In this document: positions 33,883 to 38,680 of the stretch, piece after piece
Position numbering within the stretch: position 1 is the stretch's first letter
Layout: every line of letters starts with the position of its first letter
From: a virus
Virus genome (UHGV): UHGV-0253772
Reading direction: 5' to 3' (one strand)
Length of the DNA stretch: 44,914 bases
Position numbers and translations under genes: made by a program
The notes under the pieces: model-generated
The model's database searches: none
What the model was told of the DNA's origin: nothing
Seen by the model: only the letters and a program-made list of their open reading frames with translations

Positions 33883-33972
33883 TTTTAAGTTCTCCAATTT
33901 AGGATTGAGTGGTAAAGCTCTTTATCTGGGGCTTACTTTATCGAACTATAAGCCCCTTGTAAAGTACTTTAT
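33883..33972 (-). repeat. intergenic cassette repeat, type B (copy 4)
   Basis: conserved core. Confidence 0.7.
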
Positions 33973-34352
33973 TTGTTAATTTTGAAGATAGTTACATAAC
34001 CATCGCTGCCGATGATTTGTGATGCTCCAGCTTTTTCTACTTGATAGCCCATATTTTCAAGATGATAAACAGCATCATCATAACCATATGCGCCGCCTTG
34101 ATAACGTCTCTTATCACATCTTACTAATACCTTTCCACGTCCAGCAAGTGCATTTAGTACAGCTTTTTCACTTGAAAGTGTACCATCTAACATGGTTGCC
34201 GTGTAATGGTTGATTCTATTCCCGTTTACATCATACTTAAAATTGAATGCGTGAACAACGATAATGTTACCTTTAAAATTTTCATCAAGTGACTTCTCCA
34301 GTGCGTTGCGAAAGTTGTCTTTGTTGATGAATTTAGGTGCACGGTATTTCAT
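33969..34352 (-). CDS. hypothetical protein
   Basis: 127 aa ORF. Confidence 0.55.
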   Translation of the reverse strand: MKYRAPKFINKDNFRNALEKSLDENFKGNIIVVHAFNFKYDVNGNRINHYTATMLDGTLSSEKAVLNALAGRGKVLVRCDKRRYQGGAYGYDDAVYHLENMGYQVEKAGASQIIGSDGYVTIFKINK

Positions 34353-34412
34353 TTTTGAATCTCCAGTTTAGGACTTTATTTAGTGGGGAAGGTTATTCCC
34401 TCCCCGTTGATG
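34353..34412 (-). repeat. intergenic cassette repeat, type A (copy 7, most upstream)
   Basis: conserved core; truncated upstream part. Confidence 0.65.
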
Positions 34413-34599
34413 CAAATACTAGGTAACCACGTTCAAAGAGTCAAGAAAAATTTTAAAAATATTTTTAGCAAAACTGTAATGAAACGGGCGCACACGACTA
34501 CCACAAAACAGAACTATAATCAAGAATTATTTTTCAATCCGCTACAAATTTTTCTGTTGACTTTTATTTCCAGATGTGGTAGCCTTGTGAGAAATGGCG

Positions 34600-34810
34600 A
34601 CATCCCCACCTGCACCCACCTACCTGCACAATTCTAAAATGATTTTTCTTGCCCGACCTGAGCGGGGTCTGCACGTTTTGAAAATGAAAAAGCTCTTTGG
34701 AGATTACCTGCACAGTTTGAAAATGAATTTTCTCTTTGGAGTTCAAAATTTTCTCTACAGATTTCTGTCCAGAACTCTACCTGCACAATCCTGAAATGAA
34801 AAAGCCCTCC
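34600..34810. repeat. four direct repeats CTGCAC(A/G)..(T/C)TGAAAATGA in a 450 bp noncoding stretch
   Basis: copies near 34632, 34668, 34708 and 34775; candidate promoter/operator region upstream of the minus-strand array. Confidence 0.5.
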
Positions 34811-34871
34811 TTACCTGAAAATTTACCAGATAAGAAAGGCTTAACCTATTGTGAATATTCTACAGAGTTTC

Positions 34872-35657
34872 TTAGTTCTTTGCGTCTAAGAAGGTTACTT
34901 CCGGTGAAGAGAAAATTTCCTCAACATCCTCATCAGTTCTTGCATAGATATATGTATCTGCATCACTGCCAAATGTTACTGCAATTCTGTGATTGCTCTT
35001 CGACAGGTGGGTAACTAGAGCGTTACTTAGAGACATCTTTTCAACCGGAGGGTTACTTTGATGTATCTTGCCTTTTCTTCGTCTGAAGAGGGTAACTGTA
35101 TCATCAGTGAACACTACTACACCTGCAAAGTATTCTGGTTCACAGTAGTTCTTCCAACCTGAGCGTAACTTGTGGTACATCTCACCTTCGTAGACATACA
35201 GATACACATCTACATTCTTCATCACCTGATTAATGATAACAGTGACGGCTTGAGGGTCTAGTCCACCGATACCTGCACCAATCATAGGTAACCCAACTTT
35301 CTTCAACTGATTGACTTCACAGTATCTGTTAAGCTGTTTCAAAGATGACTCTAAAGCACTGTATCGGGCATCTTTACCAGTCTTAAGCTGGGTGTAAAGG
35401 TTAGCTATACATCCTTGTCTTAAACGTGCTACAGAGAAATTGCCTAGTAAATTCTCACAGGGCTTGTGGCCTATGCCACCTGCATACAGATAAACTTCTG
35501 TATCAGTCTCGTATGCTTTTGGGTAAAATTTAGAAATCTTGTCAGCGATACCTGCACCCATTAAGTTCATACAGTTGCAACCGTGACCGATGACATCAAA
35601 CTTACCTTTATCAAATGCTGCAAAGATATCACCGTTGATGATTTTTACAATACCCAT
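34872..35657 (-). CDS. macrodomain protein, TARG1/DarG-like, with unassigned C-terminal domain
   Basis: N-terminal motifs INGDIF...FDVIGHGCNCMNLMGAGIA and later KVGLPMIGAGIGGLD resemble the TARG1-type macrodomain signature (recognised from memory, not searched). Confidence 0.55.
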   Translation of the reverse strand: MGIVKIINGDIFAAFDKGKFDVIGHGCNCMNLMGAGIADKISKFYPKAYETDTEVYLYAGGIGHKPCENLLGNFSVARLRQGCIANLYTQLKTGKDARYSALESSLKQLNRYCEVNQLKKVGLPMIGAGIGGLDPQAVTVIINQVMKNVDVYLYVYEGEMYHKLRSGWKNYCEPEYFAGVVVFTDDTVTLFRRRKGKIHQSNPPVEKMSLSNALVTHLSKSNHRIAVTFGSDADTYIYARTDEDVEEIFSSPEVTFLDAKN

Positions 35658-35858
35658 TTAACATCTCTCCCAAGTTTCTTTATCTTCTGAAGGTTTTACA
35701 CGTTGCCCTTCGTGGTCTACCCAGATACATCCACAACCTTCACAGATTACTGGCATTGCATAGCCAGCTTTAAAGTCGTCTTCAGTGATAAGACCTTTTA
35801 AGTCACCTGTATCACGTCCAAACATTTCAATAGAACAATCTTTGCAGAAATCAGCCAT
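35658..35858 (-). CDS. small Cys-rich (zinc-ribbon-like) protein
   Basis: ATG at 35858 with AAGAGG upstream; CKDC ... CEGCGC. Confidence 0.45.
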   Translation of the reverse strand: MADFCKDCSIEMFGRDTGDLKGLITEDDFKAGYAMPVICEGCGCIWVDHEGQRVKPSEDKETWERC

Positions 35859-36078
35859 GAATAATTGCCTCTTGAATGATGATACCTTTACCACAACGAC
35901 TTTTAAAGTGTTCTAATGGTTCAGAGATGAAGCCACGTAAACAGTCAGTGAATACTAAGTTCTTCCGGTAAGCTATCACATCATTTGCTGTAAATGGTAT
36001 GACCTCATTTCGTCCAATGAACACCGCTGACCTGATAAGTCTCCGTGTCTTTTTATCTCTGGCTAGTATTACTTTCAT
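35851..36078 (-). CDS. hypothetical protein
   Basis: 75 aa ORF in operon. Confidence 0.45.
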   Translation of the reverse strand: MKVILARDKKTRRLIRSAVFIGRNEVIPFTANDVIAYRKNLVFTDCLRGFISEPLEHFKSRCGKGIIIQEAIIHG

Positions 36079-36683: not shown

Positions 36684-36949
36684 TTCCTCGTTTTAAGAAC
36701 TGCTAAGATTTCTTTAGAATCTGGTAAGAACCATGTGTAGTGATTCTCTTTGATTTCTGGATGAGTGTCAACCTTTATTTTGCAATCTTTACCAACATGC
36801 TTAAGCTGTGCTGTGACACCTTGCATAAAAATATGACACATCACATTATCCATAATGGTAGGTATGAAGTCAATTCGCATATAAGTTTCTTTTGGTCGTG
36901 GTAACAGTAAGTATCCTTCTACGTAAAAAGTATCTTCATTCTCTGTCAT
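36680..36949 (-). CDS. hypothetical protein
   Basis: 89 aa ORF, coupled to upstream stop. Confidence 0.5.
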   Translation of the reverse strand: MTENEDTFYVEGYLLLPRPKETYMRIDFIPTIMDNVMCHIFMQGVTAQLKHVGKDCKIKVDTHPEIKENHYTWFLPDSKEILAVLKTRK

Positions 36950-37215
36950 TGCTGTTTATTTCCTAATAAAATCATATCAATAAGGTTATTAGCTTTGATT
37001 GTACACTGGTAGAATTCATCACGATAAAACTCAAGGGCTGCTGCCACATCACTACCGGTATTACCTTTGATAGTGAATCTTGAATCTTCTTGAGTGTACT
37101 TGTCACTCTCACTTACTTGGGAGTTTTTGAATGTACTGCTCACTTTGTTCGTTGAACACCCTGACATAATTATCAGTAACACAAACATTATAAAACTCTG
37201 GCTTAGTTTTTTCAT
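36946..37215 (-). CDS. putative o-spanin (outer-membrane lipoprotein, Rz1-like)
   Basis: signal peptide ending in lipobox-like IMSGC; starts inside the 3' part of the i-spanin gene in another frame; AAGAGGT RBS. Confidence 0.5.
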   Translation of the reverse strand: MKKLSQSFIMFVLLIIMSGCSTNKVSSTFKNSQVSESDKYTQEDSRFTIKGNTGSDVAAALEFYRDEFYQCTIKANNLIDMILLGNKQQ

Positions 37216-37456
37216 ATGTTAGTACCTCTTTTGTATGCTTATTCTTAGCAAGCACGTCTTTCAAATCATTTTTGTAATTGGTGCTCAGTGTAACTAATCC
37301 TTCCTGATAAGCATCTTTAGCAACACTTATCAGCTTCTCATTGTTTAACTCAGCTTCAGCAACTTGGTAGTCTCTGTAAGAGTATCCTCCCCAGACACCC
37401 GCCCCAACTAAGAAAACAATTATGAAAGTAGCTTGACAGAACTCTTTAAATGTCAT
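37109..37456 (-). CDS. putative i-spanin (Rz-like)
   Basis: N-terminal TM helix, helical periplasmic part, overlapped by o-spanin gene; AGGAGA RBS. Confidence 0.5.
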   Translation of the reverse strand: MTFKEFCQATFIIVFLVGAGVWGGYSYRDYQVAEAELNNEKLISVAKDAYQEGLVTLSTNYKNDLKDVLAKNKHTKEVLTYEKTKPEFYNVCVTDNYVRVFNEQSEQYIQKLPSK

Positions 37457-37984: not shown

Positions 37985-38680
37985 TCAATGTTTAACTAAC
38001 ATGGTTTTAATGTGTGGAAGGATTCTGTTTACCTTCTGAACATTCTTCTCTGTATCTTCTATAAAACATACTATATTAAAGTAAGGCAGAATGCAAGACT
38101 GAATCATCCTCACTTTCAAACTTTCTGCACTTATAGAATTATTCCCAAAACCACGCATAAAAAGCATGTAGTCATGCTCTGTGTTATGCCTTAAAAACAT
38201 CTCAGTAGGTATTCTCTGAGATTCACCTCTGGCTGTCAAGAGTCCAATGGCAGCATGATTAGCAATTGCATCAATAATATTGAAAACATACGTTGGTTTT
38301 GCTCTTACAGAGTCAAGAAGATTAGTGTACTGTGAAAATGACCCATCAATCAATTCTGTTGAGCAATCTTCGTGATTAAAATTTGTAAGAACACCATCAA
38401 TATCTGCTAAGATGAGGTTACCTTTTTCTACAAGGTCTTTATTGACTATGACTAAACTGTCACGTCTTACACCTATAGATTGTCCAGTCTCTTTGTCCAC
38501 AACGTTCACAATTGATTCTGAAGTGTGGAACTCTTCAAGTGAACATACAACTTCTCTTGCAGTATCTTCAAAATCCCTGCACTGTTCTGAAGTCCATACA
38601 CAGGAATCAAGACCTAACTCATGAGGGTGCAAGTCGTAAGCATGACACAGGACTTCATCAGACTTTCTTAATTTTTTCAT
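37985..38680 (-). CDS. HAD-superfamily hydrolase, 5'(3')-deoxyribonucleotidase-like
   Basis: motif I LADIDGVLTNF (DxDGV) in the C-terminal half. Confidence 0.5.
   Translation of the reverse strand: MKKLRKSDEVLCHAYDLHPHELGLDSCVWTSEQCRDFEDTAREVVCSLEEFHTSESIVNVVDKETGQSIGVRRDSLVIVNKDLVEKGNLILADIDGVLTNFNHEDCSTELIDGSFSQYTNLLDSVRAKPTYVFNIIDAIANHAAIGLLTARGESQRIPTEMFLRHNTEHDYMLFMRGFGNNSISAESLKVRMIQSCILPYFNIVCFIEDTEKNVQKVNRILPHIKTMLVKH

What the first reader, a model, noticed from the sequence alone, without database searches (positions are those of the whole stretch)
34872..35657. Phage-encoded TARG1/DarG-like macrodomain protein: candidate reversal of DNA ADP-ribosylation
Seen: the N-terminal 160 aa carry GDIF, DVIGHGCNCxxxMGAGIA and a later GLPMIGAGIGGLD motif, followed by an unassigned 100 aa C-terminal domain. 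Established: TARG1-type macrodomains, including the DarG antitoxin, remove ADP-ribose from thymidine on ssDNA written by DarT, and DarTG acts as an anti-phage abortive-infection system. Inference: a lytic phage carrying its own DarG-like eraser would be a direct counter-defence. It sits at the head of a small-gene operon and in the same region as an NAD-salvage enzyme.
Basis: partly seen in the sequence, partly recalled or inferred. Interest (0 to 1): 0.8.

Follow-up and report, generated by a model that had tools for sequence, protein, structure and literature searches.

The report
Felix O1-type phage AdfM-like macrodomain
This Felix O1-like phage gene encodes an ADP-ribose-removing macrodomain related to phage T4 Tk.4/AdfM, a known counter to the bacterial DarTG2 DNA-ADP-ribosylation defence, so it is a plausible but untested new member of a known anti-defence family that carries an extra C-terminal domain of unknown role.

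Summary
The ORF is real: minus strand, 34872-35657, 261 aa, with all the quoted motifs. The window is a Felixounavirus. About 245 relatives annotate this gene as phosphatase, macro domain protein or ymdB.

The TARG1 Lys84/Asp125 dyad is absent; the aligned residues are an invariant Gln90 and Gly131. This does not refute the idea. SCO6735 uses an essential Gln at that position to cleave thymidine-ADP-ribose. T4 Tk.4/AdfM is 34% identical (E 5e-24) and has the same HGCNC, NLYTQ and IGAGIG motifs. Its knockout sensitises T4 to DarTG2.

Corrections: the gene is the last gene of its operon, not the first, and NAMPT lies 8 kb upstream.

The 100-aa C-terminal domain is confined to this family, is under purifying selection, and has no assigned function.

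Verdict: a new member of a known kind, of modest interest.

The parts
34872..35657 (-). Complete CDS (261 aa plus stop codon) of the two-domain macrodomain protein
   Evidence: ORF listing and translation. phrog_335 at 1e-113. Relatives 93-98% identical are annotated phosphatase, macro domain protein or ymdB.
35187..35657 (-). N-terminal macrodomain (res 1-157), ALC1-like/TARG1-DarG-Poa1p class, T4 Tk.4/AdfM-type active site (HGCNC, NLYTQ, PMIGAGIGG)
34875..35186 (-). C-terminal domain (res 158-261): linker helix, six beta-strands and a helix. Family-restricted, function unassigned.
   Evidence: AF2 full-length model with pLDDT 86-94 in this part. No Pfam or PDB sequence hit. An hmmsearch of 1.84 billion representatives finds only this protein family. 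dN/dS 0.19. Semi-conserved basic loop at 193-197.
35658..35894 (-). Upstream small gene (phrog_2210, Cys-rich) whose TAA stop abuts the macro ATG. It shows that the macro gene is co-transcribed as the distal gene of the run.
34802..34842 (-). Intrinsic-terminator-like hairpin (17-bp stem) followed by UUUUUCAUUU, 30 nt after the macro stop codon
   Evidence: Terminator scan. RNA fold of -25.1 kcal/mol, z -4.29, 0 of 200 shuffles as stable.

Best explanation
The gene encodes an early-expressed, two-domain ADP-ribosylglycohydrolase of the phage AdfM (T4 Tk.4) family. The N-terminal macrodomain binds the ADP-ribose moiety through its two glycine-rich loops (HGCNCxxxMGAGIA and PMIGAGIGG). It hydrolyses the ribose-C1'' to thymine-N3 bond that the host DarT2 toxin places on single-stranded phage DNA. 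That restores replication and packaging, and so neutralises the DarTG2 abortive-infection system. Catalysis is probably of the SCO6735/T4-AdfM type. An invariant Gln (Q90, in NLYTQ) and an invariant Asn (N28) position the distal ribose and a water molecule. This replaces the Lys-Schiff-base chemistry of TARG1. The roughly 100-aa C-terminal domain is an accessory module specific to this phage lineage, and its role (substrate or partner targeting) is unknown. What is shown: the fold class, motif conservation, homology to T4 AdfM and PhiKZ AdfM, operon position, and purifying selection. What is inferred: the substrate (dT-ADPr on ssDNA), the catalytic roles of Q90 and N28, early expression, and the anti-DarTG2 phenotype in this phage.
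Against: No experiment exists on any Felix O1-type protein, and no paper links Felixounavirus macrodomains to DarTG. At 34% identity, substrate specificity can differ. Macrodomains of this class also act on Glu/Asp-linked protein ADPr, O-acetyl-ADPr, ADPr-1''-phosphate and nucleic-acid phosphate-linked ADPr. The T4 evidence is genetic only; enzymology exists for the Lys-type PhiKZ AdfM and for SCO6735, not for the Gln-type phage enzymes. The HxCNC motif, including H25, resembles Poa1p, an ADPr-1''-phosphatase: the Poa1p H23A variant scores 6.7 bits lower against the family profile than wild type. The protein scores 47 bits against the NCBIfam DarG equivalog cut-off of 250. A published comparative-genomic survey argued that phage macrodomains mostly target soluble ADPr derivatives (PMC9503650). 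The validated AdfMs lack the extra C-terminal domain.
Confidence: 0.6

Rival explanations
1. The protein is a Poa1p-like hydrolase of soluble ADP-ribose derivatives, such as ADPr-1''-phosphate, O-acetyl-ADPr or NAD-derived immune signals and toxins. It would detoxify or recycle these molecules, feeding the phage's NAD+ salvage (NAMPT) pathway rather than repairing DNA.
For: The HGCNC motif and invariant H25 match the Poa1p motif; the Poa1p H23A structure variant scores 38.6 bits against 45.3 for wild type. Poa1p is the top Foldseek hit. The PHROG and GenBank annotations read 'phosphatase', and T4 Tk.4 is annotated 'A1pp phosphatase motif'. NAMPT is conserved on the same strand upstream. [quoted passage not shown]
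Confidence: 0.2
2. The protein erases ADP-ribose from proteins or RNA. Targets could be host-ART modifications of phage proteins, mRNA ADP-ribosylation by CmdT-like toxins, or the phage's own ADP-ribosylation marks.
For: TARG1 is the best profile hit. By established knowledge it removes Glu/Asp-linked and nucleic-acid phosphate-linked ADPr, and SCO6735 acts on both protein and DNA substrates. mRNA-ADP-ribosylating defences against coliphages are known (PMC11618068, listed).
Against: There is no ART gene or other contextual link in the operon. There is no experimental precedent for a phage Tk.4-type macrodomain on these substrates. The T4 homolog's phenotype is DarTG2-specific.
Confidence: 0.15
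3. The protein is a non-catalytic ADP-ribose reader or sponge, or a stoichiometric DarT inhibitor acting mainly through the C-terminal domain rather than through hydrolysis.
For: The TARG1 Lys/Asp dyad is absent. Catalytically dead SCO6735, DarG and TARG1 still inhibit DarT by interaction. An extra conserved domain is present.
Against: Both catalytic-loop residues known to matter in relatives are invariant: N28, equivalent to AdfM N23, and Q90, equivalent to SCO6735 Q85. The C-terminal domain shows no similarity to the DarG DarT-binding region, since only positions 12-153 of the 338-position DarG model match.
Confidence: 0.05

Closest known systems
T4 Tk.4 / AdfM (anti-DarT factor macrodomain; bioRxiv 10.1101/2025.11.20.689424)
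   Same: Same PHROG (phrog_335). 34% identity over the whole macrodomain, E 5e-24. Identical active-site motifs GD, HGCNC, MGxGxA, NLYTQ (Gln, not Lys) and PxIGAGIG. Both are genes of large lytic enterobacterial myoviruses, in early or non-structural regions.
   Different: T4 Tk.4 is a 155-aa single domain, whereas this protein has an extra roughly 100-aa C-terminal domain. The genomic neighbourhoods differ (tk-vs in T4; rII, PNKP-like and spanin run here). The DarTG2 phenotype is shown for T4 only.
PhiKZ gp104 AdfM (chimallivirus DarG2-like antitoxin; PMC13309987)
   Same: Phage-encoded orphan macrodomain, also in phrog_335. It aligns with the family profile at hhalign probability 95.6, with its catalytic Asn N23 opposite N28.
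   Different: About 24% identity. PhiKZ AdfM keeps the DarG/TARG1-type Lys (PTK) where this protein has Gln. It is imported into the phage nucleus and has no C-terminal domain.
Bacterial DarG (DarTG2 antitoxin) macrodomain
   Different: Not an equivalog: 47 bits against a cut-off of 250. It lacks DarG Lys80 and the DarG C-terminal DarT-binding domain, and no darT gene is adjacent.
Streptomyces coelicolor SCO6735 (PMC9411070)
   Same: ALC1-like macrodomain (profile E 1e-13). It has Gln at the TARG1-K84 position, and that Gln is essential for cleaving thymidine-linked ADPr.
   Different: A cellular actinobacterial protein of about 180 aa with a single domain. Equivalents of its DNA-binding Lys89 and Lys94 could not be checked here.
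Human TARG1 (OARD1) and yeast Poa1p
   Same: TARG1 is the best profile hit (3e-17) and Poa1p the best Foldseek hit. Poa1p shares the HxCNC motif.
   Different: TARG1 K84 and D125 are replaced by Q90 and G131. Poa1p's characterised activity is on a soluble substrate (ADPr-1''-P).

Membership tests
Macrodomain superfamily (Pfam PF01661) | Sequence match above the Pfam gathering score | tested here: met
   33.5 bits against a cut-off of 22, E 4.4e-8, residues 25-141 covering profile positions 2-117 of 118.
Macrodomain superfamily (Pfam PF01661) | Three-layer alpha/beta/alpha macro fold with two Gly-rich ADPr-binding loops | tested here: met
ALC1-like class (TARG1 / DarG / Poa1p / SCO6735) | Closer by profile and structure to TARG1, DarG, SCO6735 and Poa1p than to MacroD, viral, PARG or macroH2A types | tested here: met
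TARG1-type catalytic mechanism | Catalytic Lys84 / Asp125 dyad | tested here: not met
   The HMM alignment places invariant Q90 at K84 and G131 at D125.
DarG antitoxin (NCBIfam NF048014 equivalog) | Full-length match above the curated cut-off (macrodomain plus C-terminal DarT-binding domain) | tested here: not met
   47.3 bits against a cut-off of 250. Only model positions 12-153 of 338 match.
DarG antitoxin (NCBIfam NF048014 equivalog) | Catalytic Lys (Taq DarG K80) after the conserved Thr | tested here: not met
   Gln90 occupies this position. The equivalence K80 = TARG1 K84 = SCO6735 Q85 comes from PMC9411070, and the alignment to TARG1.
DarG antitoxin (NCBIfam NF048014 equivalog) | Encoded next to a darT toxin gene | tested here: not met
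   Neighbours are phage small genes, spanins and a PNKP-like gene, with no ART. It is an orphan, as expected for a phage counter-defence.
Phage AdfM (T4 Tk.4 type) | Significant full-domain homology to T4 Tk.4, in the same protein family | tested here: met
   BLASTP E 5e-24, 34% identity over residues 3-157. Both are in phrog_335.
Phage AdfM (T4 Tk.4 type) | Shared active-site motifs (HGCNC, NLYTQ, PxIGAGIG) | tested here: met
   Alignment A3 and the family invariants.
Phage AdfM (T4 Tk.4 type) | Protects the phage from DarTG2, and removes DarT2-installed ADP-ribose from DNA | not testable with these tools
   Requires plaque assays on a DarTG2-expressing host and an in vitro de-ADP-ribosylation assay. 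It is shown only for T4 (genetics) and PhiKZ (biochemistry).
Poa1p-like ADPr-1''-phosphatase | HxCN motif with the His that was mutated in the Poa1p structural study (H23) | tested here: inconclusive
   H25 is invariant. The Poa1p H23A chain scores 6.7 bits below wild type against the family profile, which implies that H23 aligns with H25. No residue-level alignment was printed, and the activity itself cannot be tested here.

The most novel reading that the evidence does not exclude
The family-restricted C-terminal domain may turn this AdfM into a functional analogue of full-length DarG. In that case it would add a second, non-enzymatic activity to the eraser. Candidates are direct binding and inhibition of DarT2, or tethering to ssDNA or the replisome so that repair happens at the fork. 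A further possibility is that it broadens the enzyme to another ADP-ribosylated substrate. Either would be an independently evolved eraser-plus-targeting architecture in phages, possibly recurring in other 245-260-aa phage macro proteins.
Probability: 0.2. Interest if true: 0.55.

Novelty: new member of a known kind. Interest (0 to 1): 0.3.

Why it matters
If the Felix O1-type protein is an active AdfM, then a whole subfamily of therapeutically used Salmonella and E. coli phages (Felixounavirus, hundreds of isolates) carries built-in resistance to DarTG2. That matters for predicting host range and choosing phages. It would also extend the Gln-type (SCO6735-like) mechanism of thymidine de-ADP-ribosylation to a second phage lineage. 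The conserved extra domain offers a way to ask how orphan antitoxin mimics are targeted. The concept itself, that phages carry DarG-like macrodomains to reverse DarT2, is already established for T4 and PhiKZ. The finding therefore extends that knowledge and does not open a new question.

Tried and rejected

3. DarG equivalog membership. Rejected.

4. An operon-level link to NAD salvage. Rejected as direct evidence, because NAMPT is 8 kb upstream with unrelated genes between.

5. Literature searches for Felixounavirus or Ounavirinae together with DarTG or macrodomain gave no relevant paper. One broad search was uninformative.

6. A generic DNA-binding role for the C-terminal domain based on charge. 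Not supported: pI varies from 4.6 to 9.5 across homologs, and only a short basic loop is semi-conserved.

Full report
**Observation**

The coordinates 34872-35657 hold an uninterrupted 261-aa ORF on the minus strand. The plus-strand frame is full of stops. The quoted motifs are present:
- GDIF at residues 9-12
- DVIGHGCNCMNLMGAGIA at residues 21-38
- GLPMIGAGIGGLD at residues 122-134

The window belongs to a Felixounavirus. A 3-kb segment around the gene matches 245 phage records, mostly at 90-95% identity. In those records the gene is annotated 'phosphatase', 'putative macro domain protein' or 'ymdB O-acetyl-ADP-ribose deacetylase'. The gene is therefore already recognised as a macrodomain gene in public annotation.

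**Context and a correction**

All neighbouring genes are on the minus strand. Reading in the direction of transcription, the order is:
- NAMPT, 43789 to the window end (phrog 'nicotinamide phosphoribosyl transferase')
- two small genes
- rIIA and rIIB
- a 182-aa gene
- a 231-aa PNKP-like/HAD gene
- an i-spanin/o-spanin pair
- five small genes of unknown function
- the macro gene

The macro ATG directly follows the TAA of the preceding gene. Thirty nucleotides after its stop codon lies a 17-bp hairpin followed by a U-run (ΔG -25 kcal/mol for the 86-nt stretch that includes it, z = -4.3). A 520-nt gap comes next. NAMPT is 8 kb upstream.

The same order (NAMPT, rIIA, rIIB, PNKP-like, small genes, macro) holds on metagenomic contigs whose macro proteins are only 33-42% identical. 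This is an old, vertically kept gene of the Ounavirinae-like lineage. One pairwise comparison gives dN/dS of 0.10 for the macrodomain and 0.19 for the C-terminal part.

**What the N-terminal domain is**

Several independent searches agree:
- Pfam Macro matches above its gathering score.
- A profile of 31 homologs hits TARG1 (3e-17), M. tuberculosis DarG (1.6e-14), SCO6735 (1e-13), T. aquaticus DarG (3e-13), two Bacteroides structural-genomics macrodomains, and Poa1p (5e-12). Alphavirus nsP3 macrodomains score 5e-3 or worse and MacroD types 0.1 or worse.
- The PADLOC DarG model matches at 1.9e-13.
- The full-length AF2 model is confident (pLDDT 92.6, pTM 0.89).
- Foldseek ranks Poa1p, TARG1 and DarG first, with target-normalised TM of 0.77-0.87.

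The class-level assignment 'TARG1/DarG-like' is correct. The protein is not a DarG equivalog: it scores 47 bits against the NCBIfam cut-off of 250, and only the macro part of the model matches.

**Catalytic residues**

In the HMM alignment, TARG1 K84 aligns with Q90 and D125 with G131. Q90 is invariant within the motif NLYTQ across the family. The TARG1 dyad is therefore absent.
- DarG itself lacks the Asp.
- SCO6735 lacks both residues. It has Gln85 at the Lys position, loses all activity when Gln85 is mutated, and cleaves thymidine-linked ADP-ribose on DNA (PMC9411070).
- N28 aligns with N23 of PhiKZ AdfM, the residue mutated to reduce that enzyme's activity.
- H25 probably corresponds to Poa1p H23, because the H23A chain scores 6.7 bits below wild type against the family profile. 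This last point is an inference.

**The decisive homology**

A tblastn search of cultured phages finds macrodomain relatives in 2,846 records. These include T-even phages at the tk.4 locus, rV5-like, Vi1-like and Pakpunavirus phages, and jumbo phages. Only 257 records cover at least 80% of the query, meaning they have the two-domain form.

T4 Tk.4 (NP_049723, 155 aa) is 34% identical to residues 3-157, E 5e-24. It shares GD, HGCNC, MGxGxA, NLYTQ and PxIGAGIG. T4 Tk.4, PhiKZ gp104 and this protein all fall in phrog_335.

A 2025 preprint found tk.4 as the single significant hit when a T4 transposon library was challenged with DarTG2. It showed that a clean knockout is sensitised, and named the gene adfM. 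A 2026 Cell Reports paper independently named PhiKZ gp104 AdfM. It showed removal of DarT2-installed ADP-ribose from DNA in vitro and rescue of DarT2 toxicity.

PhiKZ AdfM has the DarG-type Lys (PTK). T4 AdfM and the present protein have Gln. Two active-site types therefore share the name AdfM, and this protein belongs to the T4 type.

**The C-terminal domain**

In the confident full-length model, residues 158-261 form a linker helix, six β-strands and a helix. Searches for its identity gave the following:
- No Pfam or PDB sequence hit. One member gave a sub-threshold PH match, E 0.08.
- A profile search of 1.84 billion representative proteins found only this protein family, fragments of it, and a few spurious repetitive proteins.
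- Only P174, G179 and Y236 are conserved at 90% or more across the aligned C-terminal regions. A short basic loop (193-197, RRKGK) is semi-conserved, but overall charge is not.
- It is not the DarG DarT-binding domain by sequence.
- Foldseek against viral models gave full-length alignments to other 245-260-aa phage macro proteins: Erwinia phage M7, Acinetobacter phage 133 'tk.4', and Vibrio phages YC and VP-1. The rmsd values are large, so this is a hint that a macrodomain plus a small C-terminal module recurs, not a demonstration.

My attempt to model the domain alone failed because I submitted it without an alignment.

**Mechanism**

The best-supported reading is an orphan antitoxin mimic. 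The protein is probably made early with the rII-region genes. It binds ADP-ribose on thymidines of single-stranded phage DNA modified by DarT2 and hydrolyses the N-glycosidic link. N28 and Q90 would position the distal ribose and a water molecule. This would allow replication and packaging in DarTG2-bearing hosts. My confidence is about 0.9 that it is an active ADPr hydrolase of the AdfM/Tk.4 family, and about 0.6 that DarT2-modified DNA is its physiological substrate.

The rivals are not mutually exclusive:
- Poa1p-like processing of soluble ADPr derivatives linked to NAD salvage. This is the view of phage macrodomains favoured by PMC9503650.
- Erasure of protein or RNA ADP-ribosylation.
- A non-catalytic binder or inhibitor.

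**Comparison and novelty**

The protein works like T4 AdfM, and on sequence criteria it is a member of that family. It is DarG-like in fold but fails the DarG equivalog, catalytic-Lys and toxin-adjacency tests. It lacks the TARG1 dyad. It shares the Gln-type site with SCO6735.

The concept is already published for two phage lineages, and the gene is already annotated as a macrodomain in hundreds of genomes. No paper links it to DarTG in Felixounaviruses. The finding is therefore a new, untested member of a known kind. The family-restricted C-terminal domain is its only unexplained feature. Interest is 0.3.

Noticed in passing
window 34624-34799 (minus strand), within the gap 34353-34871: Four direct copies of TCATTT-N7-GTGCAG(GTA) lie immediately after the terminator hairpin downstream of the macro gene (5 matches in the window at up to one mismatch, against 0.36 expected). 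The same motif occurs 3-4 times just downstream of the macro gene in relatives L001 and L002, and in L003, whose macro protein is only 42% identical. This could be a conserved regulatory or promoter array. The gap is also an indel hotspot, since some relatives have extra small genes there.
   Followed up: partly
window 34416-34444 (minus strand) and about 34375-34412: A sigma-70-like promoter (TTGACT, 17 nt, TAGTAT) is followed by a GGGGAGGG...CCTTCCCC hairpin in the leader of the next gene (33969-34352, phrog_4495, unknown function). This suggests a separate transcription unit starts after the macro gene.
   Followed up: no
window 37985-38680 (minus strand): A 231-aa protein in phrog_3970 'polynucleotide kinase', with only a weak Pfam HAD_PNKP (phosphatase domain) match. 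It is conserved in the same syntenic slot in distant relatives. It may be a phosphatase-only PNKP relative, and an RNA or DNA end-repair role is possible.
   Followed up: partly
window 36946-37456 (minus strand): An overlapping i-spanin/o-spanin pair (Rz-like, with a lipobox in the 89-aa ORF) is embedded in the run of small early-region genes between the PNKP-like gene and the macro gene. This is an unusual place for lysis genes.
   Followed up: no
window 35658-35894 (minus strand): The small protein immediately upstream of the macro gene, with no intergenic gap, has two Cys pairs (CKDC...CEGCGC), suggesting a zinc ribbon. It is in phrog_2210 with unknown function. A 63-66-aa gene occupies the same slot directly upstream of the macro gene on the distant contigs L003 and L004; I did not compare their sequences.
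   Followed up: no
T4 NC_000866 60922-61389 (L008) versus PhiKZ gp104: Two proteins independently named AdfM have different residues at the key catalytic position: Gln in T4 Tk.4 (NLYTQ) and Lys in PhiKZ gp104 (PTK). The Felix O1-type protein is of the Gln type. Enzymology exists only for the Lys type and for SCO6735.
   Followed up: partly
BFVD hits: Acinetobacter phage 133 tk.4 (245 aa), Erwinia phage vB_Eam-MM7 Gp101 (260 aa), Vibrio phages YC and VP-1 (about 245 aa): Other phage macro proteins of 245-260 aa align over their full length with the two-domain model, although sequence searches find the C-terminal domain only within the Ounavirinae-type family. A C-terminal accessory module may be a recurrent feature of phage AdfM-like proteins.
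   Followed up: no
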